A stretch of 58,899 nt of DNA, the filler included, from Gonapodya sp. JEL0774 (lineage: Eukaryota): assembly GCA_027604505.1 (NCBI GenBank). It is 3 parts of 3 records of this genome, joined end to end, with 100 filler letters (N's around TTAATTAATTAA, not from the genome) between each part and the next. Parts side by side here need not be neighbours in the genome. Positions count along the whole stretch, not along the records: positions 39,387 to 58,899 come from JADIIX010000253.1; 2 more parts are not named here. One strand, 5' to 3'. The position numbers and the translations under genes are program-made. The notes beneath the pieces were generated by a model, which worked only from the letters and a program-made list of their open reading frames with translations, was not told the DNA's origin and did no database searches. Positions 12,260 to 58,899 of the stretch are shown in pieces. Position 1 is the first letter of the stretch. Each line of letters begins with the position of its first letter.

Positions 12260-13202
12260 TCAGGAGCGGGAACCTGAGCGCGACTGGGACAGGGCGTGAT
12301 ATTGCAGAGCAGCCCAGAAATGTGGGTGGTTACGGAGATAACGCTGCCAGGACTCATCAGTCCAGCGGCCACGGCGTTGGATAACGAGGGGTGGCACACC
12401 TTCTGCGAGAAGGAACATAGCGCCACCAGAGCGAAAGCTGTGACCTGTGAGGTCACTTTCGGGATAAAAGAGGCGAAGGCTCTCAAGGAACCAACGCCGG
12501 GTCGGCGACGAACCATCGGGCATTGTCAGGGCAAAGGGGGTGCAGGGAGTGCATAGAGCACGGTAATTCTGCCATGCACGAACAGGGCAGGTAACGTCAG
12601 TGGTTTGGAGAAGGGGAACAGTGAGCGGAACTGTGGGGTTATTGTGTTTTGCATAAGGGAGGGTGATGGATATTACAGGGACACCATTGCTAAGTGTCTC
12701 CTGGACAACGTTATGGAGGGGAAGTACACGGTGGGGGTTGTCGTCTTCCCCGCCCGTGAAAGGTGAGTTCGCCTAGCCGAAGGAGGCCATGAAACGCGAA
12801 GACACAGATCACCCAAAATAGGGCATGGTCGGGGTGTGTGGGGTTTAAACGACTATGAATTGTGCAGAGAGCGTTAATGGGTTAGGGGATTGCTTTTTTC
12901 AAGGGCTTCTTACGAGGCTCGGAACGGGTTGCTTGCAAGAGCTGGAGTGTGTGTGCGTCATCGCGGGCTTCCCACGGGACCTCAAGCGCTTTGTGCCAGA
13001 AACTGAGACCGGCAAGAGCTTGAAGAACTGTGGGATAATCGTGCGCGGAGGAGTATGCGCTGATGAAAGTCCACAGACCCTCAAGGGGGATGGGAAAGGA
13101 GAGGCTGCTCGCAGGCAGCCTGTACTGACGAGCAACGTTTGCATAGGAGCGAAGGTTTGAAACGTACTTGCTGAGGGTGTTACGTTGCACCGGTGTGCTC
13201 AT
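12260..13202 (-). mobile_element. Degenerate DIRS/Ngaro-type tyrosine recombinase, remnant of a YR retrotransposon
   Basis: Across frames: NTLSKY..(N-terminal helices), HALFWVICVFAFHGLLRLGELT (Arg box), ITLPYAK, CPVRAW..Y, GHSFRSGGA, IQRRGRWTDESWQRYLR. At least two frameshifts and a stop. No RT or RNase H seen nearby. Confidence 0.85.
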
Positions 13203-19634: not shown

Positions 19635-19734
19635 NNNNNNNNNNNNNNNNNNNNNNNNNNNNNNNNNNNNNNNNNNNNTTAATTAATTAANNNNNNNNNN
19701 NNNNNNNNNNNNNNNNNNNNNNNNNNNNNNNNNN
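19635..19734. other. Assembly gap with artificial TTAATTAATTAA linker
   Basis: N-runs flanking a 12-mer with stops in all six frames; same construct at 39287-39386. Confidence 0.95.
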
Positions 19735-24183: not shown

Positions 24184-24397
24184 TCACCTCCACACTTCGG
24201 TTGTCACGGTTGAATCACCACATCGGCGGCACCTGGCGTTCCGCCACATTATACCGTTATGTTTCTTGTGTCCGATATTAGACATGTATGAATTTGTGTT
24301 CGCTGGAGTGGACTGTGCTGTGATAAATGTATGTACTGCGGCTGCCTGCATGCACGATCAAAGATCGCCAGCGGAAATTTCCATATTCTAGCCCCAC

Positions 24398-29628: not shown

Positions 29629-29713
29629 TGTACAATATGGTGTTTCAAAATTGGTGTTTCAAAGAGCGATCGCGATCGGCTCTATCACCGGCAATAATAC
29701 CCACAATCCGACA

Positions 29714-37259: not shown

Positions 37260-37678
37260 TTCCTGTAATTCTGAGAGTACGTGCTGGCCGTGACCGTTGC
37301 CCAAGTCTCTCCTTGATCGGCGAGCTCGATGAGAGCAACTTCTCAACCTGAATACAAAAACAACTGATTTGCACACTTACGGCTTGCCAGATGAGCTTGG
37401 CCGGCGAGCAGACAAGGTTTTATATCCACATCATATGTGGATAAAATTGGGCGTAGGTAAACCTCTGGAATTCAAGATACTTCGAGGGCTGAACAATAGT
37501 AGACTAGCTTAATTTATGGTGAATCAGGTCATTGGACTAATATTATTGTGGGCTCGTGACTTGGATCGCATGACTGTCCTCGTGCTGATCCGATCAATGT
37601 ACATTAAGTGAACATCTTTCATTCCCCCGAATTGAATACTTCTCGAGCCGCCCTTATTCACCGGCCATCGAGTGCCAA

Positions 37679-39286: not shown

Positions 39287-39386
39287 NNNNNNNNNNNNNN
39301 NNNNNNNNNNNNNNNNNNNNNNNNNNNNNNTTAATTAATTAANNNNNNNNNNNNNNNNNNNNNNNNNNNNNNNNNNNNNNNNNNNN
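39287..39386. other. Assembly gap with artificial TTAATTAATTAA linker
   Basis: N-runs plus the same 12-mer. The genes on both sides are truncated. Confidence 0.95.
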
Positions 39387-40549
39387 CCTTTGAAGTTCTT
39401 TGGAAGAACTGGACCGTTGACTGCTCATATCGGAGCAAAAGGAGAGTCTGGGCATTCCTATCCGAGGAGACCATTGCTGCCGAGGCTCGACAGAGAATTC
39501 GGGTACGCCATGTGGTGCTATCAAGGGATCTTTCACAAGTACTTGGTGATGAAGAACTTGTGGCAGACATTATTCGGGTGCTGGTACAAGTTCGGGACAA
39601 TGTGATTTCTCTGGAGTGGTGGTGCTCGTCAAACGATTCACTCTTCTACGGCGGGCTCTGTGCCTTTTTGCCTGCAGCCTCCAAGTTGAGGCGTCTTGCC
39701 TTCATGGGTTGGGTACCTGGCATTGAGTGGTTGACGCGTCTCCTGCCTCTCTGCACTGGACTGAAGGAACTCACCTTCAAAGTAAGGAGTGCAGAACAAA
39801 GGGTCACCCTACTTTCTGTGCTGCCGCAGTCGTTGGAGCGTTTGGAGTGCGACTGGTCCGGACTCGGCAATATCGACCAAATCACGCGGTATCAGGCCCT
39901 TCGCAGCGTCACCATCGACGGCATTCCAGAAAGTCTGGTTAGTCTGGAGGCCCTTCCCCATCTTTCAGAACTCAAGGTGAACTATTCAGAAGCCAGTTGG
40001 AGCACTGTGACGCTTGTTTTATCCGGCATCGGACATAGTTTGAAGCTTCTAAGAGTGTGTGGACAGTTGGGCCATGCAGGGGACTACCTTCCTGTGCAGG
40101 TGGTTGAGGACATCATATCATGGTGCGGGAACCTGGAAGCTTTGGCGCTATGCTCATTTGACAAGTGCTCTTTGGACGTAGTATGCCGTGTCATCTTGGC
40201 CTTTGGGCATATGAAAACTTTGAGCTTGCCGTACACACGTGTTGTGCCTGACCAAGCCCAGATGGCTGCACTCGAACCACAGGTCCGAGAACGGTTACAG
40301 CATATGGACCTCCTATTCGCATGGAGTGGAAACTCTCCACCCTCTGTTTCGAAAGAATTTGAGGTTGCTTCGACCACCCAGACTTTGTGGGGCGTCAGAC
40401 CGCTTCGAGATGACGAAAGGATCGAATGGTCACCTCGTACGCGGAAGTTCATCCGAGCTTCGTATTTGTCGCATTGGGTTTATAGATGGACATCTCATAT
40501 AAGTTGGGTTAGGTATTACAAACCAGAAAGACATGGCCCCTGCTGTTAA
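39387..40549 (+). CDS. F-box/RNI-like LRR protein, 5' end lost in the gap
   Basis: Frame is open from the gap (FEVLWKNW..). LRRs such as LRRLAF, LKELTF, LERLEC, CGNLEALAL. Paralog of 41042-42370. Confidence 0.8.
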
Positions 40550-41041
40550 TGTATGAGGCACATGCACTTTGACTTGGAGTAGTCCTGTCACCAAACCATG
40601 ACAAGCTCTTGTGAGTTGAATGACCCCTGAACGCCCTTCCCCCCCCCCCCGGCCCCCGCGTCAGATTTGAACACCAATAGTAAAGCAAACCTTCTTTGGC
40701 TGATTGATGCAGACCCGGCCAGTAAGCCACCAAAACCATAGCACATCTATAATAAGACTGTTGGGTGTGTCACCGTTTGGCCCTTTGTGCACTGAGTGTC
40801 TTGCAAGAAAGACTGGCCGATAATCATGTACAGTGCGGATGCATTACTTTGAACCATTGTAGTCACCGTGAACACCACGTATGTGCTTTCCTTGCTCACA
40901 AGCCTGCGGTCACCTTTCGCCCGACACTGATTTTCAACTCGTGTTTCCACCGCGCTGGCATCGAACAGCACACGACCTAATAGTACGTCTTGGCCTTTGT
41001 GTCGCAGAGCACCATATTTCTGCCACAATTCCTTCCCAGCC

Positions 41042-42370
41042 ATGCATCTTGCACTGTCTGAGCCATGGCTCCTTGAAAGGGTTATGATATTCTTGGGCAA
41101 TGGGGATCGGGCGGCCTGTATGAGTGTGAGGTGAGCTCTTTCAATCAGTTACTATCAAGGGGCTCGGTTTTTGGTACCGATTGATTCTGACCGAGTCCGT
41201 CTCTATGCTTGGCCACATTCTTCCTGAAGCAAAGGGTGGAAATCAATCGCCTTTGAAGTTCTTTGGAGGACTTGGACGTTTGATGAGTCCCCTGCAAGTG
41301 TGAAGCGAGTCAATGCGTACAACACACCCCCCTTGGACGGACAAACGAGGCAGAAGGTGCAACCACGTCATGTTGTTGTGCGTTATGCGGTCAGCGGGTT
41401 TAGGGAAGACGATTTCATCATGGTGGATATCCTGCTGGTGCTTCACCATATTGCCGAGTATGTCATCTCTCTGGAATGGGACTCCTCAAACACCAAGTTC
41501 ACGGTTGGAGGGTGCACTGTCTTTCTGAGTCATGCAGCTCATCTGAGACGGCTTGTGTTTGGCAGCTGTAGTGATGCTGCAAACATTTGGTTGTCTCACT
41601 TACTTCGAGCAAGCACCAATCTGGAGGTGCTGAGCTTTCAGGCCGTTTCGCTAGAGGGCCCAAAAGTGACGCTTCCTGCGGGCTTAGGACGGTCTTTAAC
41701 GACACTGGATTGCAACTTTGATGCGGTGGCTGACTTGAGTGCAATCACTGGGTACCAGGCGCTTAGGGAGTTCAATGCCCTTGGTCTGCCTGCATCAAGC
41801 TTCGATATCCTGAAACACCTCCCACACCTCTCAGTACTCAGCCTCAGTTACTCGGAACGTCCTTGGGATGCAGTGACAAGTGTTCTGACCAGTATTGGTG
41901 GACGTCTGGATTATTTGAGAGTTTCTGCAGAATGTGATTACTTTGTGGATATTGAGACGCTCCCTAACCAAGTGGTAGAGGCTATAGTACGGCACTGTGG
42001 CAATCTCAAAGGTCTGGAGCTGAACTGCTTTGGCACCTGCACTTGTGCTGGTGTATATGGTGTCATCTCGGCATTGCCGAAGTTGAAAGCTTTGGGCTTA
42101 GTGGCGAGTTACGTAGTACCCGACAAAGACTGGAAGAGCAGACTGGATTCATATGTCGCTGATAGGGTTAGGGGGCTGTCTCTGTTTTTTGAGTGGGGGT
42201 TAGTGCAAGATGTAGCCATGGCTGAGGACCAACCTGGAACTTTGATAGGTGGCTACACTCGCGGCACCTGGGACGCCAACACACCCCTTGGTGGATGTCT
42301 GCCTCTTCAACGTAACGAGTACCCAAAGTGGTTAGACAAAGCACGGTGGCTGTCCGGGACTTGCTTTTGA
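41042..42370 (+). CDS. F-box/RNI-like LRR protein (2 exons)
   Basis: MHLALSEPWLLERVMIFLGNGDRAACMSV | intron from 41131 | SKGWKSIAFEVLW forms an F-box. LRRs follow (LRRLVF, LEVLSF, CGNLKGLEL, LPKLKAL). Confidence 0.82.
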
Positions 42371-43251
42371 AGTGAACGACGAGGCATGATGCATATTCTG
42401 TACTGTTTATTGTGTTCCATTTGGCTTTGTATAATGCACTTGAATCAAGAAGGTCCTCGATCGTTCATTAAGGGTCCACGAGGGTGTGCACTACAGATGT
42501 ATGTAAACAATGAAAAATGATGACATGGGGCTATCTCTGCATCCCGAAGAGTGAATGTGTTCAGTCAGCATAAACCTTGTTCTCTCAGGTTGAAACCTTT
42601 GTGTCTCCTCTTGTGACCCTTGGTACGACATGTACTCGTTTGATGTGAGCCGCGTCCCAAATCATCATCACCAATGTTTGTATCCGGTACTATGCAAGGG
42701 TTGATAAGCTGTTTAACTTGCATCTGGCACGGAGCGAGGGTGAACCAGAGAGTGGGAGGCACTCGAAAGGGACTTGGAGGATTATATTAAAGAAACCTCA
42801 AACGACGGAGGTCCCTGGCTGCAAGAATGAGCGTTTTCTAAAGGGCGGGCGGTTTTGCTCTAGTTATAAAAATGCGTGACTTGATTTATTTTTTGGCTCA
42901 TCTGAACGCATCTATAATAAGTGTAATACCTTTTTGTCCCGAATAGGTTCCTCAGTCGGCATTCGGCAGGTTGGAGGCAATGCTCAGCCCTTATCGGCCA
43001 TCGTCTCCCACAACTGGTTGTCTTTACTTGTTTTTTTTGAGGCTGAAGTAAGGGTTCTGACGGACAGCATCGTAGGTCATCATAGAAACCCTTTCCAAAC
43101 GAAGCGGCACCCTCTGACGAGGGATTGTTGCCACCCACATACCATCAGTTGGCAGTACTTTCTCCTATCCTCGATCGGTTGGGAGATAGGGCAAAAACCA
43201 CCAACCAGACGTGTCTTGCTCAAAGTCTGCAGCTCCATATTGTGATTTTCA

Positions 43252-46200
43252 ATGTCCTCCTCATTCACCCTGAATGGTGAGCTTGGGTGTTGGTCCTTTG
43301 AGTCATGACCTTTTTATATTGGAAGACCACATATTTGACTGTTTTATGGTCACTCTGCTAGAAGATGAATCTTCAATGCCATTGGAGGGTCCCCCTGACA
43401 GTGCTGTCCTCCCTGATCCCCTTGATGGCACATCAATTTATATCGAGATGGATGCAGGTACAGATGATGATCTGGTGCAGGTCCCTGATGCCAGTCATGA
43501 CGACATTGGTGACGGAGGACTTCAATATGAAGGTGGTGACACAAGCTCTGATGACGAGACAGGTGAAGTTTTCTGCCTACCTGTCCGACCTCATGGAGCC
43601 CCAGAGACTCAACTCCCTTTATACATACATATATATATATATATTCTCCCTGCCTGAAAAATTGATCCACACACACAGAAGTCATCCTGGCCGAGGCCGT
43701 GTCCGAGTTTGTGTGCACAGAACCAGTTTGTGCAACACTGACCGGACTTCGCAAGATCTTTGGAACTGCTCAGAAGCTCAAAGACCACAAGAAACAACGC
43801 CACGGAACCACGACGTTCGAAATTCCAAACCTCGAAAGTGGTGGCGCCTCTACTCTTTTCCGAATATTTCCCGATCAAACGGGAATGTACAACTGCCCTT
43901 ACCGTGAAAGAGGTTGTAAGAAGCAGTTTACATACACAACAACCGTCTGTCGTCATGCGCAAGGCTGTCCACACTCCCAGAAGGCCTCAACCTCTGCAGA
44001 TCCCCTGATGGACTACACGGTAGGAGATGCGGATGATTTGAGCGGGTTCCATGTGCCGGTAACAGCAAAGGACCTGTCTCTGTACGAGGGTTTTGGTTCG
44101 TATAACGCTGGAGTCTTTTGGGTTAGAATGCCCATGGCTGTGCATGGGAGCTGACAGACAACTTCTCATTTTGCCTGTTCCTACTCGTAGGAGATCTGAA
44201 CTTGCTTGACGCTGGGCTTGTCATTGACAAAGAACTGGGAGCGGTACTCTGTCTGCGATGTCGATGCTACCAGACTCTCCATGTGACCGAGTCTGGAGAC
44301 AAGCCTGGTCCTCTGAATACGGAGGTTGCGCAGCACTTGCTCTCCTCGATCAAGCACAAAGGTTACGGTCGGGTGAAAGTAGCTGAAGTGGTGGCTGCTA
44401 TTCATACCTTGACACAGAAGTGCGGTATCCTGCTCCACACTGCTCCGTGGCCTGCAAAGCTTCAACAGGAACAGGGTCTCCAAGCCACTTCCGGACGCAT
44501 TTCTGAGGCCCTGGTCTTGCGCAGCTCACTTCCACGTGAGCGACGTGCAGTGCCCCTTTCTCCTCTCCCACATATCATGATTCACCTAGGTTACGAGTGC
44601 CGACTGTGCTCCATCTTCACTACAATCAGCAAGAAACGCATGGAACAGCATCACTCCGCTAATTCAAATATCTCGTGTATCAACCTTGGCCTGAAAGTGG
44701 AGGGTACTGTGCCGTATCGAAGCAATGTGTGGCTTCAGAACGTGCGTTCGCGTGTGAAGGATAGGGTGTACGTACCTGTGCAGATCCCAGGACGAGTTGT
44801 CCCGGACCTGGACATGGACCTGAAAGAGACTCCAGAGATTCCAGAGTCGGCTGCTCCAGGAATCACCCTTGAGGAACTGGGTGACCATTTCCGATCAGTG
44901 AAAGGTCGACGGGTTCTGGAGGATATTCTGCAGGGGTTCGGCGATCAAGCCACCCGACACACTGGCACGATGTCATTGAGTGACATTGATCCAAAGCAGC
45001 AGGACTACTACGTTCGAGAACTTCACCTTGTACACTTTCTAGAGGCACAAGAGCTGAGCGGTGGGGATAGTAAGGAGGCCAAGACTCTGAGGATGAGTCA
45101 ACTGCATGGATTGGTGCAGCTGGTGAACACCGGGCCTTCTACAATGGAGGCATTTGTAGAGTTTATGACCTCATGCTTGGTAGGAGGGTCGGGTGAAGGT
45201 GACGGGCCGGTTCATCTCAAGTCAGATCAGCAAGAGAGGGTGGAAAGGGCGTGGGCAGACGTGCAGATACTGCACTCAGGCGGTTCCCCTTTCTACAGAC
45301 ACTTTTATCTTCCATCCAACACCGACATGAGGTCGGCGAGCGTCAACAACCCGAGGTTGCTTGACCTGTTCAAAGGGAGGGAAGACTGGCACACGCATCT
45401 GAAGCCGATCGGGATGAACTCCTTGGCAAAGTACTCCAGGCATGGTACCGGCTACTTGACGCTCTTGGTGGTTTTGCACGCTCTACAAGGTGCACCGGTT
45501 CGGTTTTCACAGTCACTGTGGGCCGATCAAGCCGGGGAGTCCACGGTTAAGTTGAGGGATGCTGTCGGAAGATTAAGAGGGTTGCTTCCCAAGGAGCGTC
45601 CTATAAACACTTCAGAATCCTTTGACAAGGAACTGTGGATTGTGTTCCAGACCATACTGTGGGAGACTGCCTCGTCCAAGTTGGTGCAATTGGACAACCT
45701 GTGTGACAATCTGCACCCTTTCGTCTTGTTCACGCTGCTGTCGTTCATGAAATCATCTGATGGTGTGAGCAAATTAGACCCGTCACCCGTGGTTCAATTC
45801 CAAGCGGCGAAGCACGTGTCCTCCAGGTTGGCTCAGAGTTCACATATGCTCCGGCTGGGCGCGTTCAATAGACTGAGAGATGCAGTCAGGATAGCTGTCG
45901 GAGTACGATCAATGGGGTAAGTAGTTTCTTGCTGCTCTTGGTCTGGTCCTCCCTTTTGGTAAACTAATATTTTACGGACTGACCGGGGTACTTGCGTGAT
46001 CCGCGCACCACCCACCCACCCACCGGCACATATCCTATGACGGCTTGTGGTGCGACAGTACCAGTAATGATCTCTCTGAGCAAGACCAGAAAGTGTTGGA
46101 GCGGGGCACTGGGATCATCTTGGGCTGTGTCAGCGAGGTTCAGGGAGATGCCCTTGACACTCCCTACACGATAGTGAGGCATTATTTGCGAGTGGTCAGT

Positions 46201-49200
46201 CAAGATGCCGCCATGTCAGAGAAAGGGTCTTTCCATGTGGTGAAATTCGAAACCCATGAAGGCGATCATGGGGTGCATCTCTACTGTGGCGACAGGAGTG
46301 ATATCCGAATTACACTTTCGGAAGTCCGAGAGTGTGTGAAGCGACTGGTTCATAGGTTGGACCGTACCTTGCGGAATGATATTCTGAAAAGGCACCGGGT
46401 ACCAGACATTCTCGGTCCTGCTTCGTGGGACAAGTACCGTGACAACTTGGGGAGCTCGAGTTCCACTGGGCGATTCATTGACCAGTTCAGTCAAATGTCG
46501 GATGACAGGCTCCACAAGGATTATTTGAAGCACCTCTACACTTTGGGTTACGTCTCTCGTTTTGAAGTCGGATCCGATGGCAAGCTGTCTTCCACGATCG
46601 ACAGAGACAAGATCTCCTCTCTGTTTGACATTGTGGGGGGATGGGATGAGCTTTGCATCGTGCTGGTGTATCTCACAAGTGGACAGTCGTTCCGGGGGAC
46701 CGAGTTTGCCGGGTTGACCATCCACAACCTTCGGTGGCATGAGGAAGCCAAAGCGTTTGCCCTAGAATTTGTGTATTCGAAAACAGGTGCGCGTCGTATC
46801 TGGAGATACATGCATCCCCTAGTGGCCTACTTTCTCCTGGTACGCGTGTTTGTGGTCCGTCCAGTGCTGGCTCAGCTGGAGCTCCTGGTGTTTCAACACT
46901 TTGCCCACGACCCTCTGCCAGGCCGGGAAACATCTGAGGCAGTGACCAAGATGTCTGAGAGTAGGCTCCTGCATATTTTGACTTGCACCGATGGTTCGGT
47001 CATGAAAGACGTGGCCACTGTTGTGGCAAAAGTGATGGTTTCGGTTGGCCCCATTCCCTTCACTGTTCGGCAGTGGAGGCAGATCTTGCAGACCTTGCTC
47101 AACTCGGTTTTTCAAGACACCACGTATGGTCCAATGGCCTCGTTTGTCAGGAATGCACTCAAATGGGCAGGCGCCGAGGGTGGATTAGCACCTGATGTGG
47201 AGGATGACTGGTCGATGGCGCATGCCTCTTCGACAGGACACAGTCTTGCGACGCACAATCTGGATTATGGTCGTTCTGCACGTGGGCTGACCGTGGGCAA
47301 TATCGGGAGCCTGAACCATGACAAGGATAACGGGCATTTTTTAGTGAGCTTGTGAGTGTGGTTGCGTTGGTGGGTGCAACAGGTTTTCCGTGCCTCTCTC
47401 GTCTGTGCATTCTGGGCTGCCAAATCCAATCCAATCGAATATGCCCTGATAGATGCTTGGTGCAGTGGACTCTCTCTCCATCTTGTTTTGATGTGGTGTT
47501 GCATCAACTAACCCCAGCCCCCTCCCCCCCCCCCCCCCTCCTTTAATGTGCCCCTTCACACGCACCGCCCGCTCTGCCCTTCCCATCCGTTCTCAACCGG
47601 CACCTAGTCTGACAATGTATTTGAGCGAGATCAACCTCCTCGCTCAGGCAGCACCATATCAGGCACTCTTCGCGTGGATGGAAAACTGGGCCTGCAAGAT
47701 ATGCAATATATCCAGCAAACCGGGCGGCAGGACAGTTGGGCGAAGCATGACAACATCGACATCGACATTGCCGCCCATGTCCTTTGATACTCTCGGTACA
47801 CATGCCTCAACCGATGTGAGCAATGTGGTTGTTGTGAATGTGCAGAACCATACGACTCTTCAGGCAGGCTCATCTGGACTCTTGTCATGTGAGAGCCATC
47901 TCCCGATGTTGTGTCCCTATGGCTGTTGCAGCTGTGATTCAAACACAATTGTCCTAATAATATATATTTTTTTTTTCTATGTGCTTATCTTTGGTACTTT
48001 TGATTGGCGCTCACGTGCTCTCGTTCTGTTCTCCTGTACTTTTCACTCGTCGACCACACTTTTCCTCCCATTGTTGTGCATAATAATGGTGGTTTACCCT
48101 TCGGAACTTTGCACAGATCCCGGTCAATTCCACCCACTCCTGGTGAAATCAGCAGCAACCTCTGTGCCAGCGCCCACCGCAGCAACTGCGGACTCTGATC
48201 TGGGCAAGTCTACCTTGTCTCATACTTCCACTACTGTTGGTCATTATCTTGTGTCGGGCGCACGAGGAGGCCTAGGCTGGGATGTGTCGCACGAGCTCAC
48301 GCGTTTGGCCACCTACTTCCCCGGTGTATACCTTAACGAGGACTATGGCTGCGCTATAACACCCGAGTTTGTGCGAAGTCAGCTGACACGAGTTTTGACT
48401 CTGAACCACCGATCCGGTATGGGTTGCACATGGAGGGATCCCATTTTGTCGCTGTCTGCGAGGTTGCTGTTAGGTGGCAAGTCTGACATCATGATTGGTT
48501 CAAGAACAGGAAGTGGCAAGACCTTGGTACCCTTGACAGTTGCAGCAGGTCTGGGCTTCCTCGCTCTGCAGACTGGTAGCGCCAAGGCAAAGACTGTGAT
48601 TGTTTTGACCCCATATGTACTGGTTGGGATGCAGGTCGTGGAATGGTGCCGCAATCTCAAGTGGTCGTACATCTCCATCACTGGAGAGGATGATCGCTCC
48701 CCTGCAACTCAGCAGTGGATGGGTATGTGCCACGACCATCTCCAGGGACCACCTCGGGTTGTGGTGATCAACTGGTCCTCGATCCACCGTTCTGACGTGC
48801 TGGACACCATTCGACAGTGCTCGCGATTTATATTCTGCATTGTCGTGGATGAGGCGCAGGAAGTCAAGTACGCTTGGGGCTACAGGGCCGAAGACATTTC
48901 CTCGGTCACCAAGTTCCGGTCCACCACTGGGACAGAGGATGTTCCAATGGTGCTTATGTCCGGAAGTTTCAGGGTCAATGACCTGCCTTACTATGCCAGA
49001 TCATTTGAAATGGGAGACACAGCTGTACAGGGTGGTGTGTCGAACCGCCGTGTCCCACGCCCTCTGGCGGTTTTTTACGACCATAGGACTTGTATCCGAC
49101 ATGATGTGGAGCTTTCCATACACAGAGTGCCTTGTGATCTTACTGGCTGCAACACCAAATTGGAGAGGGAGAGTGAGGTCCAACGCGTGGTCATTGGTGA

Positions 49201-51579
49201 AGCAGTACAACTACTGTTGAACAGGCACCGCAGTGAGAGGAGCCGACCTGATCCAGGGCTCTCCTTGATCTTGGTACCCAAGATATCACTCTGTAAGATT
49301 GTCCGTGAACAACTCGTGTCTGGGGCAGCCGAGACAAAGCGTCCTCTCCGGTTGGACGAGGTGGCCGTAATGCACTCCGACATTCCGGAGCGAGAGACCC
49401 GAGAGTTGCTAATGCGCATAGAGCGAGGAGAGGTTCTGTTCTTGGTTGGTACAACACGTGTTCGGACTGGCTTTAATTTTGCTGGTAAACCGGTCCGGAC
49501 CATCATCAGTGTGGGTGGGTTGGACACATTAGATGGTGTGACGCAACTGGCTGGACGTGGGGGCAGAGATGGCTATGGGTGTCGCCTTGTGTTTGTTGTG
49601 GACAACGGCCTTGAGTCCATGTCCTCTTGGAGCTACCGTGCTGCGACTACGGGAGTCACGGGTACTTCTGCGGACCCGCCGCCTTCATCGTTCGAGTTTG
49701 GTGATGAGGGTCCGCAAATGAACAATTTCCTTGCGGCAGACAGGTCATGTCTCGCACAGAAGCTGCATCGTTACTTGGGTGGCACGGAAGGGCCAACCTG
49801 CATAGATAACGGTGGTATCCCGATCGAGGATGTCCTGGACCGTTCTACCAGCTCGGCAGGATTAGGGCAGCACCCAGCGTTGCCGCAATACACGCCTGTT
49901 TTGTGTGGCAATTGCAAGCTGACTGCAGGACAAGTCGAAATGCTCGACCTTCCACGTGCTCTGGTGGAAGAGGATCAGGTGGCTGCATTACATAGTGCCA
50001 TGCCCGTCAGTTCCTTGACCGAATCTGAAGAGCCCAACTTAGGTGACGAAACGGTGGAGACGATCGAAACGATCGACACCGTGTTCTCTCAGGAGGAGGC
50101 CCATCTCTCTTTGAGCACATCCCGCGGCGATGATCAGCCGTCTCTGTTGGGTGGTGGTGTACGTGCTGACAGGAGTGTGTCAGAGGTCGCTTTCTCGCAG
50201 CACGACCACAACTCTAGCTGTGGTGGCACATCTAGTCAAGACACTTTGAACAATACTTCCAGCGGCTCAGGCATCGAAACACTACCTGTGAAAGTGGGGA
50301 GTCAACCTTTGGGCGGTGCAGGTGATCCAATACCCCTTCATGCTGGTTTATTGTCAACACATGCTTGCCCGTCCTTGGAGGATGTCGATGCTTTACCTTG
50401 GCCATCGTTGTCGTTTGGGGTTCGGCCTCCTCATGGGCGGGCAAGGGCTCGGTCCTTGGATCAGGGTTCAGTCTCTGGAACGGATCATGATGGCATTCAA
50501 CCGCAACCGAAACGGCCTAGGTTTGAAACGGCCTAGGTTTGAAACGGCCGTGCCAACCAAGGATCAAGGTTTTGCCCGAAAGCTCACGAGCGCGTATCCT
50601 GAGAGGAGGCCACAACCAGGTGCAGTATCAGCCGTGCAACGACAGCAGGGGCACTTTGAACGTCCACTCTCTGTTTCTGCACAGTTGTCAAACATGGTTG
50701 TGAGTATGCAGGCACATCTTGTCTTTTGGGGTCTGCGGTTGTGGACTCAACCTCATGATTTTCGTCCCACCCACCTTCCGGTAGTCCAACCACAAATCCA
50801 TGCTTGGAGATGGGCCTTCTGGCATCTTGACAGGTGTTGCTCATCAGTTGTCGGGACACCATTTCCAACCTCCGGCCCAAAACCTGTTGGCTGTTGTAGG
50901 TGCTTGGAAGAACGACTATCAAGCGATCGGGGCCCAAAAGGAACAAAGACTGCAAGGTTTACTTGTCGAGGTCGTGTCTCGGCTTCAAGGTCGTGGTCCT
51001 TACTGCCCGGTGTGCTTACTGTGGTATGGTGAGGAAACTCAGCTTCACATTCATCGAGGGGATACGTGTGATCTCCGAAAAAGAAATTGCCTCTTGTGTT
51101 TGGGTGCTCACAGCGTGGATGCATGCCACGAATTTGGACCCGCTCGGAAAAGAGAGTGGGTGACAGGCAGCTGTTGGACTTGCAGCCTACCGCAAAAGGG
51201 AGCCGGAGAGCAGCCCTTTCATCACATGCCTAAGTTACAGGGGTCGAATAAGATGCCGTGTACTGCGAGCAACATGGGTCAAGCAGCCCCCCAGGTCGTA
51301 AGCACTATGGTGTGGACAGCGTGCAGTTTCAGTGGGCGTCGCGAAGGCTGTGACGCGGTGCGAACTTTTTACCGTAATCTTTTCATTGGGCACCAGCTCC
51401 TGACGACGGACCAGTTCGACAGTATGTTTGTCGACACTGTGGCGCAAAGGGTCATTTTCCGCAAATGGATGGAGCGCCCCTTAGCTCACGGTTCGAAACT
51501 GATGAACATGGTCGTTCTGTTTGCAATCACACTCACGAGTCCATACAATGGAGGTCTGAAACCCTATTGTGTAGGGTGA
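43252..51579 (+). CDS. Large multi-exon C2H2 + DUF3505-like + tyrosine-recombinase-like + RecQ-like SF2 helicase + Zn-knuckle protein (telomere-linked helicase type); frame broken at ~50525
   Basis: Phase-compatible GT..AG introns (approx. 43277-43361, 43563-43678, 44096-44190, 45917-46058, 47344-47647, 47889-48116, 50700-50784) join the ORFs. Motifs: VLCLRC..GYECRLC..H (DUF3505-like); GQSFRGTE, YSKT, RQWRQ, GHS..Y; RTGSGKT, VVDEAQ, QLAGRGGRDG, C...L.RYL..C..CGNC; terminal CPVC/CLLC..H...C/CWTC. Confidence 0.8.
50509..50549 (+). repeat. 16-bp tandem duplication (gaaacggcctaggttt x2 + gaaacggcc)
   Basis: Read directly. Removing one copy restores PKRPRFETAVPTKDQG and links the helicase to the last exon. 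Confidence 0.95.
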
Positions 51580-52250
51580 GGGGTCAATGGTGCTCAATAG
51601 CTAATTTTTTATTTTCTTACATATCCTGAGTGTGTGCGCTTATTACTTTTGTAACACCGTGTTGTTGTCAGTGCTGTCTCCTTCTCCCCCTGTTTCGGAA
51701 CGGGATCACAATCTTTCCACATGATTTCAGGTTCTGTGCTCAGCCTAAAACAATCTCACCTGAATTTAAATTTTCCGTCGGGGCCTGGCGGGCCGATCGC
51801 GCAATCATTGCCGCCATTACTCTCTTTAAGACAACCAGCGCTTGACCACCGTCCTTCTGGCGCTCTCCAAAACAGAACCCACTCTTGGGCTCTATAATTC
51901 TCTCCCGCCCCCCTCTCTTGGAGTATTGGATAGATAAAACTGCTTTGGGTGGGTTTTTGATCAGAAGAAGAGAGGCGACATTCATTTGTTGGTCGATCGG
52001 CACGCTCGACCACGTGTCTGTCCCTTTACTGTTTCCATGTTCCTCTGTTTGTGCATTATCTGCCTTTCTCTGATGGATGTGTTGCAATGCCGTCATCTGG
52101 ATGTCTCTTTCGTCTCGTGGGTTGATCGCTCGCTGATTGCACATTTCATTTTCTGTCCTTCGTACTTCCCTGTCTTGGCCGGACGTTGTTGATGGATTAT
52201 CAAAATATTGCATGCGTGATAAGCAGATCCAGTGAAACCGACGTAGATCA

Positions 52251-54407
52251 ATGACTCTACCACAACTTGGCACAAGAAGGAGCGTGAGTTGCACTTTCAG
52301 TCGCCAACTGAGCACCTGCCCAACTCCTACATCATTGATTGTTGACCGGAAGAACTTGCGTGTTGGTGTTTGCATAAACCCACCTCGCTGTCAACGGGCT
52401 TGTGCGCCCCCCCCCCCCCGGTGTTTTCTTGGTGCATGCTCTCACCTCACCGCAACGGGTTCCTCACCTTTGCATCTTTGTCTCTCTGTATCATCATCGA
52501 TCCATCACACTGCAGTCCAGGTTGCTTCGGAGAGCCGAGCCGGGTTCAGGGCAAGAAGGTGGGCGAAATCAAGCCAATCAAGAGCAAGTAAGTTTTCATG
52601 GACTCACCATGATTCTCTGCATGCACAATGAGCGCATGTTTGATGCAAGAACCACATGTGGTCTCATATTCATTGTTATATTTTTCTTCCTTTCGTTTGT
52701 GTGTGGTAGGCCCCCGAAGTATCGGCAGTACCACCCTCCCCCTCTCGTCCTCCTCAAGTTCCCTCCACACCACCTCCATTGTCTTTTGCGCAAGACCTCA
52801 ATCGGACACCACCCTCAACTGTGCCAAATGTAGTAACAGCTGGGCAAGGGGAACCCATCGTGGTCTACTCCTCTCCTCTGACACAACCATTTGGGATGGA
52901 CGATCCGTGGGACATGCGATCAACACCTCATTCTCAGGTATCTACTGTCTTTGGCGCCGGGAATGCCGGCAGTCCTTCTCCAGCGAGGCAAGGCGTTGTA
53001 GTTTGTGAGTTTGAGTGTTTCTGTTGCCTTACCTTACCTCTTGCTCATTGCACACTCTCTCCTCTCATGACACCATCTCTTTGTGGTTGATCTGCTGCTT
53101 TTTCTGCGCGTTTTGTGATTCCAGTAGGCCCTGGTGCATCCCTTCATAGCGGTGGAACACCTGGACATTACCCAAGTCTCGCAGGCTGGAACTCGAACAG
53201 TTCCCCGCGTTCTCCAGATCCACACTGGATTGGGGATCCACCAAGTCCCAACTTTGCACTTAGACCCCTCCCAAGAGAGCGTCGGGGACAGGCATTGCCC
53301 CCATTTTATATTTCAGGGGATACAGCAGTAGCTGTTGACCCTGCCAGCCTCGAGACTGCCACTACTCTTCAGGCTTACCTTGCTCAAGGTTCGTGTTGTG
53401 CCCCCCCAACCCTGTGTCTTGATAGAGGTCGTTATTTTGTGGATGTGGGACCGTTGTCCGACTTATGTCTTTTTTTGCTTTCCTTTCGGTTCTAAGTTTG
53501 ATTGTTGCATTGCTTGCTTTGGTTCCAGTACGCCGCCCTCGATCTGAATCACCCTCTACTCAGTTGAACAATTCCAATATCAGGGCGTTCGTCGCCTCGT
53601 CGCTGTTTGGAAGCGCATCCGCGCTTGCTTCCTCTTCTCAAACTTCCAGCAGCAGCAGCAGCAGCTCCTCCACATATGATACTGTCGAGGGGGAAGGAAA
53701 GAGGTTCGATTTCAGGTTTCCGTCTGGTGTGCAGGTGAGTGTGGAGATCCATAAAGAATCAATGTCTGGTGTTGACCTGTGTTACCGGGGCGAACCAGAC
53801 TGACAAACCCTTGGTTTCGCCAGGAGCTCTTCCGAAACGGTCTCCGTTACGGGCAACGTGTCGGCATCCTTATAGAACGTATATCTGATCACAGTGTGGA
53901 CCCAATCACGGGCAAGTACACCTATATCCGGGGGGACGGGCTGCCTTTGGTGGTGGGGAACCCCCCCGGTATCTCGTCTTCGCAGGAATCAGATGCTTTG
54001 ACCCATGTACAAGACATGTTGGACCCATCTTGTCCCGCAGGACAAGTGGAATGGGCGATGCAGAAAGACGGCTGGGAGGGGTGGACCGCGATGGTCCAGT
54101 ACATTGGAACAACCAATTTCCAAGGCAACCTGTGAGTAATTAGTCTACTTCCCTTGAGAGGGATTCTGTGGACGTTTTTACTTGCTCCTCTGAATAATCT
54201 CTTGGATTTGCTTTGGCTCTGTTGGTTGGAACCCACATCACTTCTTTGTGGTGGCGCCCACCTACCGCACCTACATATCCCAGAAACACGCCTGTCTACC
54301 GCACATTGAGTACGCACGCAACGGGACACCACCAATACGCCTTGATCTGCATTACTGAGGAGACCAGTAGTGACGAGATTGATGGTGGTGCTGTGACTAC
54401 TTCTTAG
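52251..54407 (+). CDS. Putative multi-exon gene of unknown function (S/P-rich N-terminus, globular-looking C-terminus)
   Basis: Run of short open segments bounded by GTGAGT/GTAAGT donors (~52284, 52587, 53005, 53734, 54132) and YAG acceptors. ..FRFPSGVQ|ELFRNGLRYG.. joins in phase 0. No family recognised. Confidence 0.5.
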
Positions 54408-55130
54408 TCAGGAGGGCGACGAATGGAAAGGTAAGACTCTAGTGCTTCGGCACTCCCCTCGTCAGTTCATGGTCTGCTTGAATTTTTTTTGTTCTCACGT
54501 GTTGCCACTTGATGCTTCATCACAGCCGAGCTCACGATGGATTGTGCTCCATCTCTTTATCTTGTCTGAAGGGGTGGTGGATATCGGCTCTTTGTTGCTC
54601 CCCCCACTCCCCCTCCTAGTTGAATCTGTCAAATTCTGTTGTGTATTTGTGGAGTCATCCACTATCCAAGCTGCTGTCTGCTCTCCTATACTTGTGACTT
54701 AAACCACCCCTTCCTTCCCTTATGGTGTGAACCAGTTCGAGTGTTGTCTGCTGGGAAGGAAAACCCATTTCATTGGCACCTCTCCTGAAAGTTCGTTGTA
54801 GTTTGTAGTGCATTAACAAAGACCTCAATGTTTATTCCAATCAATCAAGTCACAGAAGAATGACAAACCAGCCGTCATGATGAAGGCGCCTGCCACAGAG
54901 GTTGGACTACAGCATGAAGAGGTTGCTCACATAGTACTTTAGAGGGCCGCTTCTCTCAACAAACTCTTGCTGGACTCTCTCTCTACGCTAAGCAGGAATA
55001 ACCCCCTAAGTATATTACAACCAATCTTTGGAGTCATTACACACCATAGCATGTTAGGCCTGCCTGGCACATCGCAAATTGCCCCACTCACTCACTCCTG
55101 TTATATGAATACACCATTTACAACTCCAAC

Positions 55131-56102
55131 CTACTTCCACACAAACTGCCTGGCCAGCCTTTTCGGGATCTGGGGGTCTGTTTGGGAAGGATTCGAGCGT
55201 GGTGCTTGCCAAACAAAGGTGGTGTCGGCCCAGAGTCCCTCGTAGTCTTTGTCCTGGCTCTCGAGGTAGGCGTGCAAACGTAGATTGAGCGGTGCTGTAT
55301 CTGGCAACCTGGCACCTGCGTGGACTATGTCTCTGAACAAGAAAGCATCACCAGGACGCATCTTCAGGACCCTTGGGGTGAATGTGGTGCTGTGAATGTC
55401 TGGGTCGGTGCACACAGTGGGATTGTCAGTGCACCACTCTCTCACGTGCGTAGCTGTGGAGGTACTCATAGTTTCGGCCCAATGAGCCACAAGCCGCTGA
55501 GACCCAGGCCAGACTACAATCTCTGTGAGGCTGTCATATTGGCAGCCAAATTGAGTGGCAATAACGACTGAGAGGGGTATTTTTGACATGTCTGTGTTGG
55601 GGCGACAGTACCACGAATGCGCATCCACAAAGTCCATGTGTCCAAGCTGCTGGTTGGCTCCACGTTTAGACACAAGAACGTATGTGCCCCCAAATCTGTG
55701 TGTCCTTCCAAAGCCAAGGTGGTCCAAAGTCTCCAGAAGCTTGAGAAACGGAGGGCTCACTGCCGAGAATGGTATCTGCATGCGAAGTCCGTCGTCGGCG
55801 TGACTCTCTGACTTGTTTCGACGTCCTACATGCCTCACATCATTATTGAAGATGTTGTATGCCGATTGTAGGTCAGCGAGCATGGGTATTGTCCTCATAG
55901 ATTCGATGGGGATGGCACCGAGAAGAACACAGAAACCGTCATGGGCGATGGCCGCCCGAACTCTCGTAGGTGCGTCCTCATGGCCCCAAACATCGACAAC
56001 TGGACTCTCCGTGTCCCCCGTCATTGTGCGGTAGGCCGATTCTTTGTCCCGTGCAACATGCCCGGTTCCACTTGATGACGAGCCCAGCAATGCGACAGGC
56101 AT
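55131..56102 (-). CDS. 2-oxoglutarate/Fe(II)-dependent dioxygenase, PhyH-like
   Basis: DGFCVL N-terminal strand, Q..HMDF (HxD), VWPGS, RPGDAFLF..IVHAGA (distal His), NLRLH (2OG-binding Arg). Confidence 0.82.
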   Translation of the reverse strand: MPVALLGSSSSGTGHVARDKESAYRTMTGDTESPVVDVWGHEDAPTRVRAAIAHDGFCVLLGAIPIESMRTIPMLADLQSAYNIFNNDVRHVGRRNKSESHADDGLRMQIPFSAVSPPFLKLLETLDHLGFGRTHRFGGTYVLVSKRGANQQLGHMDFVDAHSWYCRPNTDMSKIPLSVVIATQFGCQYDSLTEIVVWPGSQRLVAHWAETMSTSTATHVREWCTDNPTVCTDPDIHSTTFTPRVLKMRPGDAFLFRDIVHAGARLPDTAPLNLRLHAYLESQDKDYEGLWADTTFVWQAPRSNPSQTDPQIPKRLARQFVWK

Positions 56103-56202
56103 GGGAGTTTTATGAGGAGTGTGAGTGGATAGGACAAGTGTGCGGTTTGACGACGGGGTACTTGTCTGGAGAGGTCCGCCTCTGTGTGCGGGATGGAATG
56201 GG

Positions 56203-56272
56203 GAGGTTTGCTGTGGTCAAAAAACCCGGACATAAGGCCTTATGTCCGGGTTTTTTGACCACAGCAAACCTC
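56203..56272. repeat. Perfect 70-bp palindrome with no spacer (35-bp arms, centre AAGG|CCTT)
   Basis: gaggtttgctgtggtcaaaaaacccggacataagg|ccttatgtccgggttttttgaccacagcaaacctc. ORFs on both strands begin with the same MSGFFDHSKP. Confidence 0.98.
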
Positions 56273-56349
56273 AAGACCGGTCATCGTGTCTCCGTGTCTC
56301 CGCCCTCCTAACCTTTTGTTTACCAATCACATTTCGCCATTTTCTCCCC

Positions 56350-58662
56350 ATGTCTGAACCAATTTCTGCTCATACTAGCGCTGAACCTTTAACCAGCGAC
56401 GGTGATGGACGCAGTGCGACCTTGGTCCCCGTGGTCCTTTACCCCAACTCGTTTGAACTGGAAGACGAATCCACGTTACGAGCGTTTGCTCAATGGCACA
56501 TCGGACATCCGACTGAGACACAGTCACTCTCACCCGATTTCTTGGCGAGCCAGGTGGTTGAGGCAGCCACACAGCGACTGGAAATGCTGGAGAGAATGCA
56601 GGAAGCGGCGCGGAGAGCGGACGTTATCAACCGAAACGCCGTTGAGACAGCTGGATTTCTAGCTCTTTATCTGAAAGCTAAGGCAGACAGGGACATGGGA
56701 ACGTTGACGGGATCTGACGATCTTTATCAACGATGGATTCGCGAGTGGAACCATGCTTACCCAGCTTTGAAGGTGTTCCCTCGTGCCGCAGAGTCCAAGT
56801 TCACTAAGCAAATGTTCGAAAACGCAGCCCGCAACTTTTTCTTCCCTCTGGGGACGTCTGACGTGCTTGATAAGCTTGTGTTTCCTGCGGGATCAGAACA
56901 GTCCGCTCAATCTGGTCGTAGGGGTCCACCAGCCACCGCCGAGACAATCGCTTTCAGAACAGTCATCGTCAGGGTTATGGACACTGTCGTGGCATATGCG
57001 TTGTCTGGCGGCACTTTTGGGTCGGGAGGATCTGACAGCTCAGATGGGCACCCTGGTTCAGATGGTGCTGATTGTCCTGAACCATCCAAGACGCTCATGG
57101 GTCGAATACAGATGGCCTTTAAGCTTGCTGCTCAAATCTTATTCGGCCGTGCGCCAGTGTTTGAAGTTTCCCGTCTTCACCGGGTTCTCTTTCAGAGGCC
57201 GAATCGACGACCTGGTGTGGCTGGCAGACTGGCCATGTACGGATTTTTGGAGACCCCTTCGACAGGTGGTTCAGCAGAGTGTGGTAAGTTATACTCTGTT
57301 GGTCTGCGTGTCGGGGTCTTGGCTCAAACCCCTACTTGTGTTGCCCTCCCTCCTTTGCCTAATGTATGTCGGGCAAAGCTCGGGAGGACAGTGGGCAGGC
57401 TCTTCAAGATGGCGTGGAAAACAGAGAAGAAAACTCTTGTCTTGATTCCAACGACGTCAGCCAGGGCTTGGATGAGGAGGACTCAGATGAAGGAGAGAGG
57501 ACAGGGGAATCTTGGTCCCAGATGTACCAAGATGCGTCACTGTTGAAAGTGCGCCTTCGTCCCGGTGGAGGTCAAGTAAAGCGTTCAGCGCTATATGAAG
57601 AAGGAATAGAATTGAATCCCAGCAAGAAGGCTAGGGTTACTAAAGTGAGTCGGTCTCTGTGGTGATGTGTTTGGTAGAGTAGTAGACTAGCGGTGTGCCC
57701 TCCGCCGGCCTCTGGTGGTGTATCTTTGTGTTTTTATTGCGAAGGCTCACTCCACTTTTTCTTCTTCCTTCCTTCTAGACCTCTCCACCTCCTTTCTGTG
57801 ATGGTACTGCCGCCGACTCGCACAACCTACCATCCGAGAAAGGGAAGGAATCGTCTCGCCACGGCCGATCAGCCCAGGACAATTTAGAATCGGAGTCCAT
57901 TGTTTCGAATTTAAGGAAAGAGGCTGATATGCCGGGTATGTGTTATGGTTCGTGACTTGATGGTCATGGTGTCCGTCAGTCAGCAGCAGCTGTCTGTCAT
58001 CAAGATTTGTGTTTTTGTGCTGATGTCGCATTGTGTAGATGATCTAGATTCTGAGTACCAACCAGGACCACGCAGACCCGACCATGCTGCCAAGACTGTT
58101 GCTACCCAGCCGGCAAGCGACTGTATCAACCACTCTCTCGAACCCACTTGTACAGCAGCTGATGGTGGTAGCGAGGCAGGTGGGAGTGGTGTCATCAAGG
58201 ACAGGGTTAGCAAAGCCAATGAGGGTTCCAGTGGGTCAGGAACAGGAGGAGGTGGTGGTTCCGCTGAATCCCACCGCCGTGGCAGAGGGACGTCACGGGC
58301 ACATCAGGGTGGGCGTGGCGGCGGCAGCATAGTATTAGTGAGAGACGATGCCAAACCACGCACTCGGAGTGGGTCCCAGAAACGGGGAGCCAAGAGCACG
58401 GTGAGTGAACCCGTGACCATGAATCTCCTGAGGAGCTGAGCGGATGATGATGTACATATTTGTGTCTGCTTCTTCCCTCCTGACCATCTCCCTTCTCTTT
58501 TTCTATACTCAGAACCGTACTAGCACTCTCCCCGAGGAGTTTACCACCCATCAGGGAACCTATTCTTTGCAACTCCAGACTTTCGGTGACATCTCGCACC
58601 TTAACCGGATCTGGAATCGATTTAGAAGCGAGTATGAGGTGGGCAACCTCGATGAGAAGTAA
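56350..58662 (+). CDS. Putative multi-exon gene of unknown function, divergent from the dioxygenase; may extend past the window
   Basis: About 310 open codons from MSEPISAH, with a helical segment (QRLEMLERMQEAARRAD). Donors at ~57284, 57645 and 58401. Later exons are acidic, Gly-rich or basic. Confidence 0.55.
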
Positions 58663-58899
58663 GTTGTTAAAAGAGTGCTGGTGGGGGCCAGTGTGACCTC
58701 GAGTGTACCCTGGTTCTATAAGTGCGTGTTGAATAAGCACGTAGCTGGTTGAAGCATGCTGACACCCGCACCCACTTTGGTTCAACTCGCTTCCTTCCTC
58801 TCTTAGGCTGAATTTGGCCCATGAGCAATCTGGACACTCTTTGGACTGGTTCTATCTTTGTCTCTTGACCAAGTTCTGCGCTGCCGACCGGGACATTAC

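What the first reader, a model, noticed from the sequence alone, without database searches (positions are those of the whole stretch)
43252..58899. Candidate undescribed element: tyrosine-recombinase/RecQ-helicase fusion, perfect palindrome and dioxygenase cargo
Seen: the five large ORFs from 43.2 to 51.6 kb splice into one protein with Zn fingers, a DUF3505-like region, YR-like catalytic residues, a RecQ-like helicase and Zn knuckles. Within 5 kb downstream lie a 2OG-Fe(II) dioxygenase, two orphan genes and a perfect 70-bp palindrome, with no recognisable host gene among them. Known: DUF3505+RecQ proteins are described as telomere-linked helicases (e.g. Magnaporthe TLH1). The known fungal YR elements (DIRS/Ngaro, Crypton, Starship DUF3435 captains) do not carry a fused RecQ helicase. 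Inference: one protein able to cut/rejoin and unwind DNA, next to a dyad site and cargo, looks like the engine of a self-mobilising or self-replicating DNA element. It may be an integrated linear or hairpin-ended replicon rather than a host gene.
Basis: partly seen in the sequence, partly recalled or inferred. Interest (0 to 1): 0.92.

Follow-up and report, generated by a model that had tools for sequence, protein, structure and literature searches.

The report
Recombinase-helicase gene with dioxygenase and palindrome
This fungal gene is a distant relative of the "telomere-linked helicases", its long-unexplained middle domain is predicted to be a DNA cut-and-rejoin enzyme (tyrosine recombinase), and it sits beside a likely dioxygenase gene and a perfect 70-base palindrome, so it is likely the engine of a mobile DNA element, though movement of this copy is not shown.

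Summary
Mostly confirmed; mobility unproven. The locus lies on one 19.5-kb Gonapodya contig. A profile of intact relatives maps in order onto the ORFs: OrsD/DUF3505-like (weak), middle domain, SF2 helicase, Cys-rich tail. Two close relatives are single-ORF fusions, but a 16-bp duplication frameshifts the tail as assembled. The middle domain folds like a tyrosine recombinase (top 25 structural matches are YR/TopIB/Ndc10; Z 10.6) with R-K-R-H-Y conserved. This is the telomere-linked helicase (TLH) architecture. Ten paper searches found no link between TLH and recombinases, but this scan noted it earlier on other DNA. The perfect palindrome (56203-56272) is far beyond chance and lies in a divergent promoter gap. 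Four of 42 related metagenome loci have a TET/JBP-like dioxygenase beside the gene; one four-contig clade has a conserved loop-less palindrome at the gene's end. The window's dioxygenase is PhyH-like, a different family. No termini, second copy, telomere repeat or reads were available. Best reading: a TLH-type recombinase-helicase mobile element with a passenger dioxygenase (0.55). A hairpin-telomere resolvase system is not excluded (0.12).

The parts
39387..58899 (.). Whole 19,513-bp contig (Gonapodya sp. JEL0774 by the NCBI name of its protein); no telomere repeat at either end
   Evidence: N-linkers and TTAGGG scan; contig length and name
43252..45916 (+). Exons 1-4 (43252-43276, 43362-43562, 43679-44095, 44191-45916): acidic N-terminus, two C2H2/C2HC-like fingers, OrsD/DUF3505-like Zn region near 44514-44660
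   Evidence: NCBI model reproduced; Pfam OrsD E 0.0097, below cut-off
46059..47351 (+). Exon 5: predicted tyrosine-recombinase catalytic domain; codons R 46693, K 46780, R 47077, H 47239, Y 47266
   Evidence: Alignment of 24 sequences; model pLDDT 71.5; Z 10.6 to XerA; Atlas nearest named clusters are YR clan
47352..47607 (+). Inferred intron joining recombinase to helicase (GTGAGT...TAG, 256 nt; one of 33 in-frame options)
   Evidence: single-ORF relatives P0002/P0003; not checked against RNA
48461..49807 (+). SF2 helicase, RecQ-type layout (GSGKT, DEAQ, QLAGRGGRDG, followed by Cys cluster)
   Evidence: Pfam DEAD 3.3e-9, Helicase_C 2e-4; family profile 3.4e-24
50509..50549 (+). 16-bp tandem duplication; as assembled it leads to a stop at 50534-50536 and uncouples the last exon
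50834..51579 (+). Last exon: Cys-rich, Zn-knuckle-like C-terminal domain shared with relatives
   Evidence: family profile 2.6e-7, positions 1283-1426 of 1432
53091..54135 (+). Likely spliced orphan gene (exact model unknown)
   Evidence: overlapping ORFs and GT-AG signals in the sequence; two pieces tested, no family match at E below 0.05
55131..56102 (-). Single-exon 323-aa likely PhyH-type 2OG-Fe(II) dioxygenase, convergent with the big gene
   Evidence: exact protein held by NCBI; ESM Atlas 0.96, PhyH 100%; HMD...IVH...R motifs; no Pfam hit
56203..56272 (.). Perfect 70-bp palindrome with no loop, in the 247-bp gap between two divergent start codons (100 bp and 77 bp away)
   Evidence: (z -8.6)
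56350..57546 (+). Orphan ORF (398 aa to the first stop; further exons possible towards 58439)
   Evidence: no family match

Best explanation
[quoted passage not shown] Shown: domain order, conserved R-K-R-H-Y, intact fused relatives, the palindrome, dioxygenase neighbours in relatives. Predicted: the recombinase fold. Inferred mechanism: the Zn fingers bind the element's ends, Tyr 47266 forms a 3'-phosphotyrosine link, and the element is excised or integrated through a circle as Crypton and Starship elements are thought to be (recalled). The helicase would drive branch migration or copying from the nick, which would account for tandem TLH arrays at chromosome ends. The dioxygenase would oxidise a methylated base and so blunt host silencing; this is by analogy with TET/JBP transposons and is weakest here, because this enzyme is PhyH-like. 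The palindrome is most likely a two-fold symmetric binding site in the divergent promoter gap, bound by the element's protein or a host factor. As assembled, this copy probably lacks its last domain.
For: Profile of 9 long relatives hits window ORFs in order at 2e-24 (recombinase), 3.4e-24 (helicase), 2.6e-7 (tail); no other of 1266 frames scores better than 0.24. P0002/P0003 are 1332-aa single-ORF fusions, 27-28% identical over the recombinase, and group with the window protein (100/100, long branch). K, second R and Y are invariant in 24 of 24 rows and H in 23 of 24; these were not part of the search motif. Ranks 1-25 of 48,161 chains are all YR, TopIB or Ndc10. TET/JBP-like genes flank the gene in 4 of 42 family loci: L033 (4e-14) and L054 (7.7e-9) above Pfam's cut-off, L034 (0.0025) below it, L004 a fragment 67% identical to L054's. 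L004 and L054 keep the convergent layout at 41% recombinase identity. TET/JBP genes are described cargo of fungal DNA transposons (PMC12730594). TLH genes are multi-copy, arrayed, often broken (10.1101/2024.02.27.582403) and present in one Botrytis strain but absent from two others (10.1101/2022.03.07.483234). Two family loci (one lineage) end in TTAGGG arrays.
Against: No second copy seen: the protein's 90% cluster has 1 member on 1 contig, and the search of 756-2155-aa proteins found only itself. No direct or inverted match between the left flank and the right part. No telomere repeat on the contig. GC and CpG of the region match the rest of the contig. The window's dioxygenase is PhyH-like, not TET/JBP: no hit with my TET profile, and no similarity to the L046 candidate. 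TET/JBP neighbours could belong to separate transposons in repeat-rich DNA. Foldseek gave no E below 0.001, and the H/Y region of the model has pLDDT under 50. The first R motif was the search pattern for 21 of the 24 rows, so its invariance is circular.
Confidence: 0.55

Rival explanations
1. It is a domesticated host gene for chromosome-end or repeat maintenance; the recombinase fold is real but the neighbours and the palindrome are unrelated residents of a gene-dynamic region.
For: Appears single-copy; six or more spliceosomal introns; composition like its surroundings; S. pombe tlh genes aid recovery from telomere crisis (as summarised in 10.1101/2024.02.27.582403); Ndc10 is among the fold matches and is a domesticated YR (recalled).
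Against: Catalytic residues are kept; the tail is frameshifted as assembled; no close relative from any other named fungal proteome turned up; dioxygenase neighbours recur in relatives.
Confidence: 0.2
2. The protein works like a telomere resolvase (ResT, TelK, TelA): the palindrome is a replicated-telomere junction that the recombinase would cut into two hairpin ends, releasing a linear hairpin-capped element or capping a chromosome end.
For: A long loop-less palindrome is the known substrate type (recalled). In clade L005/L019/L046/L075 a 40-44-bp loop-less palindrome overlaps the gene's stop; its right arm is invariant at 19 of 20 columns against 22 of 60 just beyond, and its centre changes symmetrically (CG to AT) in one member. 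ResT is Foldseek's top row, though not significant (E 0.43).
Against: Xer-type recombinases score higher than protelomerases (Z 10.6 against 5.0 and 4.6). Hairpins are not generally enriched: 6 in 39 family loci against 6 in 42 controls. The four clade members are 82-93% identical, so they count as one observation. Their contigs run through the palindrome without fold-back. The two palindromes share no sequence. Telomere-capped relatives end in ordinary TTAGGG.
Confidence: 0.12
3. The gene is a decaying relic, and the palindrome and the 16-bp duplication are local mutations or assembly artefacts with no functional meaning.
For: Frameshifting duplication; no reads could be laid on the locus; broken TLH copies are common.
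Against: Reading frames of 597, 451 and 1014 codons are open with all catalytic motifs present; the palindrome sits neatly between two start codons; a comparable palindrome is conserved in another clade.
Confidence: 0.13

Closest known systems
Telomere-linked RecQ helicases (TLH: Magnaporthe TLH1, S. pombe tlh, Ustilago, Fusarium TLHcr, Botrytis BcTLH, Monosiga)
   Same: N-terminal C2H2-type Zn motifs, a conserved domain of about 250 or more residues directly before a RecQ-type helicase, C-terminal Cys cluster; relatives found here end in telomere arrays.
   Different: Very divergent (14-19% identity to mainstream members over the domain); intron-rich; no telomere, array or second copy seen; the papers read give the TLH domain no function, whereas here it is predicted to be a tyrosine recombinase.
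Crypton and Starship tyrosine-recombinase DNA transposons
   Same: Tyrosine-recombinase chemistry (predicted here); Starships carry passenger genes downstream of the recombinase gene (recalled).
   Different: No Crypton or DUF3435 Pfam match; fused helicase and OrsD-like Zn region; ends and target repeats not found.
TET/JBP-carrying fungal DNA transposons (KDZ, Plavaka, hAT7, PHISTA, ESTA, EnSpm, IS3EU, Helitron; PMC12730594)
   Same: A 2OG-Fe(II) dioxygenase gene beside the mobility gene; 4 of 42 family loci here have a TET/JBP-like neighbour.
   Different: Those use DDE or HUH transposases; that paper's main text has 0 occurrences of 'recombinase'. The window's own enzyme is PhyH-like.
Telomere resolvases / protelomerases (ResT, TelK, TelA)
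   Same: YR/TopIB fold family; act on long palindromes (recalled).
   Different: Lower fold scores than Xer; no hairpin end shown; they lack a RecQ-type domain (recalled).
AcademH transposons
   Same: DNA transposon encoding a helicase, in animals and fungi (title only).
   Different: DDE-type transposase with terminal inverted repeats (recalled); no recombinase.

Membership tests
TLH (telomere-linked helicase) | N-terminal C2H2 Zn motifs / OrsD (DUF3505) region | tested here: inconclusive
   Cys/His motifs present but spacing departs from the published pattern; Pfam OrsD E 0.0097, below cut-off; family profile E 0.24
TLH (telomere-linked helicase) | Conserved 'TLH domain' just upstream of the helicase | tested here: met
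   Family profile 2e-24; same domain precedes the helicase in OrsD+helicase proteins. The published alignment is a figure and could not be read, so equivalence rests on position and architecture
TLH (telomere-linked helicase) | RecQ-type SF2 helicase | tested here: met
   DEAD + Helicase_C, family profile 3.4e-24. RecQ subfamily is only suggested: relative P0003 hits recQ_fam at 2.3e-9, far below cut-off; the window's best solved-structure hits are weak DEAD-box helicases
TLH (telomere-linked helicase) | Subtelomeric, multi-copy location | tested here: inconclusive
   No telomere repeat on the 19.5-kb contig; the gene points to a contig end 7.3 kb away; no whole genome held
Tyrosine recombinase superfamily | Catalytic-domain fold | tested here: met
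   Z 10.6, rmsd 3.2 over 169 residues to XerA; ranks 1-25 all YR/TopIB/Ndc10; Foldseek not significant
Tyrosine recombinase superfamily | Catalytic residues R-K-(H)-R-H/W-Y | tested here: met
   R, K, R, Y in 24 of 24 and H in 23 of 24; the HxxR His position is variable. Assignment is by order and spacing; the H/Y stretch is low-confidence in the model
Tyrosine recombinase superfamily | Phosphotyrosine-linked cleavage and rejoining | not testable with these tools
   needs biochemistry
Mobile element (Crypton/Starship-like) | Defined ends, target repeat, copies in different flanks, empty sites | tested here: inconclusive
   No end repeats between 42301-43260 and 51580-58899; right end probably off the contig; no genome or reads
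Telomere resolvase system | Long palindromic target near the enzyme gene | tested here: met
   70-bp perfect palindrome 4.6 kb downstream
Telomere resolvase system | Covalently closed hairpin DNA ends at the palindrome | not testable with these tools
   no sequencing run was listed
TET/JBP dioxygenase | Tet_JBP domain in the window's dioxygenase | tested here: not met
   No Pfam hit at E up to 10; no hit with a profile of three TET/JBP neighbours
PhyH-type dioxygenase | HxD...H iron ligands and downstream Arg in a PhyH-like sequence | tested here: inconclusive
   Motifs present; Atlas 0.96 with 176 shared features; Pfam none; own 20-sequence profile E 0.93

The most novel reading that the evidence does not exclude
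TLH genes are the engines of an undescribed class of eukaryotic DNA element in which one recombinase-helicase protein acts on a loop-less palindrome inside the element, resolving it into hairpin ends or a fold-back replication intermediate, and which repeatedly carries 2OG-Fe(II) dioxygenases, including a PhyH-type enzyme recruited to erase DNA methylation marks. This Gonapodya locus would be a near-intact example.
Probability: 0.13. Interest if true: 0.92.

Novelty: new variant of a known kind. Interest (0 to 1): 0.63.

Why it matters
The function of TLH proteins is stated to be undetermined (10.1101/2024.02.27.582403). A recombinase active site in the TLH domain turns that into a direct test: mutate one tyrosine. 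It would recast genes treated as telomere caretakers as self-spreading DNA and would add a recombinase-helicase group to eukaryotic transposons. Recurrent dioxygenase neighbours would extend the anti-silencing cargo described for DDE and Helitron transposons to this group. A near-intact, very divergent copy in an early-branching fungus shows that the family is old.

Tried and rejected
No whole genome was held and no sequencing run was listed, so copy number, splicing and fold-back reads were untested; this is no evidence either way. Three word-based protein searches found only the window's own protein or nothing (one search covered only proteins of 2332-5000 aa). P0004 is a repetitive chance hit and was dropped. 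Folding without an alignment failed (pLDDT 35.8). Viral-contig scans found no relative; the single motif match L001 is an unrelated small virus contig. None of 94 prokaryote-genome motif matches is a family member. Solved-structure sequence searches did not detect the recombinase or either dioxygenase; plasmid tblastn found nothing. Rfam has no match on the contig. General enrichment of hairpins near family genes was not found (6 in 39 loci against 6 in 42); perfect loop-less palindromes of 16 bp or more were 11 against 4.3 expected, but 4 of the 11 are one clade. The PhyH call for the L046 neighbour rests on a motif pattern I wrote after seeing it and was not confirmed (E 2.4). L059 shares an 8-bp arm with the clade palindrome but is unrelated DNA. 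A 16-nt 'intron' removing one duplicated unit has GT-AG ends but was rejected as too short. Iyer et al. 2014 and the AcademH paper were not held; an earlier mention of this family there cannot be excluded. No supplements were read, and the TLH alignments in the papers are figures that are not held.
Full report
Setting. The window is three contigs joined by N-linkers. The finding lies on the third, 39387-58899, which is a whole 19,513-bp contig; NCBI holds a 1221-aa protein from it named Gonapodya sp. JEL0774. No whole genome and no sequencing run were available, so copy number and splicing could not be read directly.

The gene. The NCBI model is reproduced by five exons and stops at 47355. A search of 1.84 billion representatives with ORF 46063-47349 returned 4 proteins: itself, P0002, P0003 and one repetitive chance hit that I dropped. 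P0002 and P0003 are 1332-aa single-ORF proteins that match both this ORF (27-28%) and the helicase ORF (23-25%). A back-translated motif found 120 metagenome loci, an incomplete scan, and 1 viral one. 56 of these 121 are family members with the motif masked; 12 of the 56 seeded the profile. 39 members exceed 1 kb; three more (L021, L045, L070) were recognised later and had been counted among the 42 controls. None of 94 prokaryote-genome matches belongs to the family. A profile from 9 long relatives hits the window's frames in order: OrsD-like region (E 0.24), middle domain (2e-24), helicase (3.4e-24), Cys-rich tail (2.6e-7). So the ORFs are pieces of one gene. A strong donor straddles the stop at 47352, and 33 in-frame introns could join the middle domain to the helicase. 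The simplest model reads 2120 residues without a stop, ending at 50536 because a 16-bp duplication shifts the frame. A 512-nt intron could skip the duplication, but the other modelled introns are 85-256 nt. The copy is therefore probably truncated before its last domain, or mis-assembled there.

The middle domain. In 24 aligned sequences K, the second R and Y are invariant and H is present in 23; the first R was part of the search motif for 21 rows. The model built on this alignment (pLDDT 71.5, pTM 0.74; H/Y stretch under 50) matches only tyrosine recombinases, type IB topoisomerases and Ndc10 in ranks 1-25 of 48,161 chains. The best match is archaeal XerA at Z 10.6, rmsd 3.2 over 169 residues; protelomerases score 5.0 and 4.6. 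Foldseek gave no significant row, though integrases dominate the viral list. The ESM Atlas places the domain with unnamed fungal clusters, the nearest named ones being YR-clan at 0.84-0.86, a lead only. The window protein groups with P0002/P0003 on a long branch.

Family. Zn fingers, a conserved domain of unknown role and a RecQ helicase define the telomere-linked helicases (10.1101/2024.02.27.582403, parts 1-3 of 4 read; PMC1635262, passages; 10.1101/2022.03.07.483234, passages). Two family loci of one lineage end in TTAGGG arrays with the gene pointing at them. The window's contig has no such array. Ten searches returned no paper linking TLH or DUF3505 to a recombinase; I saw listings for most and passages for two incidental hits. 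Subscription papers are mostly outside the library. Earlier notes of this scan report the same fold on other DNA; they are not independent evidence.

The palindrome. It is perfect, 70 bp, without a loop; symmetry stops at its edges, and resampled sequence never exceeds 20 bp. It sits in the 247-bp gap between the divergent start codons of the dioxygenase and an orphan gene. Long hairpins are no commoner near family genes than in controls (6 in 39 loci, 6 in 42), and only 3 of 39 loci extend as far downstream as the window's palindrome lies, so the test is weak. One clade (L005, L019, L046, L075; 82-93% identical) has a 40-44-bp loop-less palindrome on the gene's stop codon. Its right arm is invariant at 19 of 20 columns against 22 of 60 just beyond, with one symmetric change at the centre, but three of the four carry one mismatch. 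It is internal to the shared unit and unrelated in sequence to the window's.

The dioxygenase. The 323-aa gene has HxD, H and Arg motifs and is PhyH-like in the Atlas (0.96), but no profile search confirms this. For neighbours in relatives I scanned 71 of 85 frames of 190 aa or more from 17 loci, 128 of 208 shorter frames plus 2 others, and rescanned 21 at a looser cut-off. TET/JBP-like genes lie beside the gene in 4 of 42 loci, of which only 20 have 1.5 kb or more of flank and several are redundant. Two pass Pfam's cut-off, one is below it and one is a fragment. L004 and L054, helicase-less variants 41% identical in the recombinase, keep a convergent TET/JBP gene, the same orientation as in the window. 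The gene after the clade palindrome in L046 has PhyH-like motifs by eye only. TET/JBP genes are described cargo of many fungal DNA transposons, none with a recombinase (PMC12730594: abstract, outline, passages and part 2 of 7). The neighbours might also be separate transposons.

Mechanism and verdict. Most likely a TLH-type element whose one protein would excise or integrate it by tyrosine-recombinase chemistry and unwind or copy it with the helicase, carrying a dioxygenase (0.55). Rivals: a domesticated host gene (0.2), a relic with incidental features (0.13), a hairpin-resolvase system (0.12). Against mobility: no second copy, no end repeats and no compositional break. Descriptions of Crypton, Starship, ResT, AcademH and Ndc10 mechanisms are recalled, not read here. 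The recombinase reading and the dioxygenase linkage were not found in print, and the hairpin-replicon idea remains open.

Noticed in passing
L005:5169-5208, L019:4844-4883, L046:3371-3410, L075:123-162: Conserved 40-44-bp loop-less palindrome overlapping the stop codon of an intact or nearly intact recombinase-helicase gene, followed by a second conserved gene with PhyH-like motifs by eye; a better system than the window for testing the palindrome's role.
   Followed up: partly
L004:3-251 and L054:28-1020: Helicase-less OrsD + recombinase genes, 41% identical, each with a convergent TET/JBP-like gene; L004 has an array of about 60-bp repeats between the two.
   Followed up: partly
L033:8205-8891 and L034:6063-7139: TET/JBP-like genes downstream (L033) and upstream (L034) of family genes.
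   Followed up: partly
L013:8346-12989 and L027:11906-15856: SNF2-like or Helicase_C-bearing genes directly downstream of family genes.
   Followed up: no
L065:11-76 and L047:18117-18194: The same family gene capped by a telomere about 0.5 kb after the motif (inside the gene) in one contig and 8.1 kb after it in another.
   Followed up: partly
L026, 73-159 in gene orientation: 40-bp-arm inverted repeat containing TTAGGG-like units upstream of a family gene.
   Followed up: no
window 39389-42370: Two tandem LRR-like paralogues (36.5% identical) upstream of the big gene; likely host genes, which would put any left boundary between 42370 and 43252.
   Followed up: partly
window 12260-12772 (-): ORF with a tyrosine-recombinase box (GHSFRSGGA...RW...Y), probably a DIRS/Ngaro-type fragment on another contig.
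   Followed up: no
window 4559-6358 and 11160-12080 (-): Repeated ankyrin-like domain family, three copies 64-81% alike, one before a kinase-like start.
   Followed up: no
window 24392-25732, 28309-29658, 35820-37376: Three F-box-like genes with long leucine-rich tails on the second contig.
   Followed up: no
window 19635-19734 and 39287-39386: Artificial N44-TTAATTAATTAA-N44 linkers; features on either side are not neighbours.
   Followed up: yes
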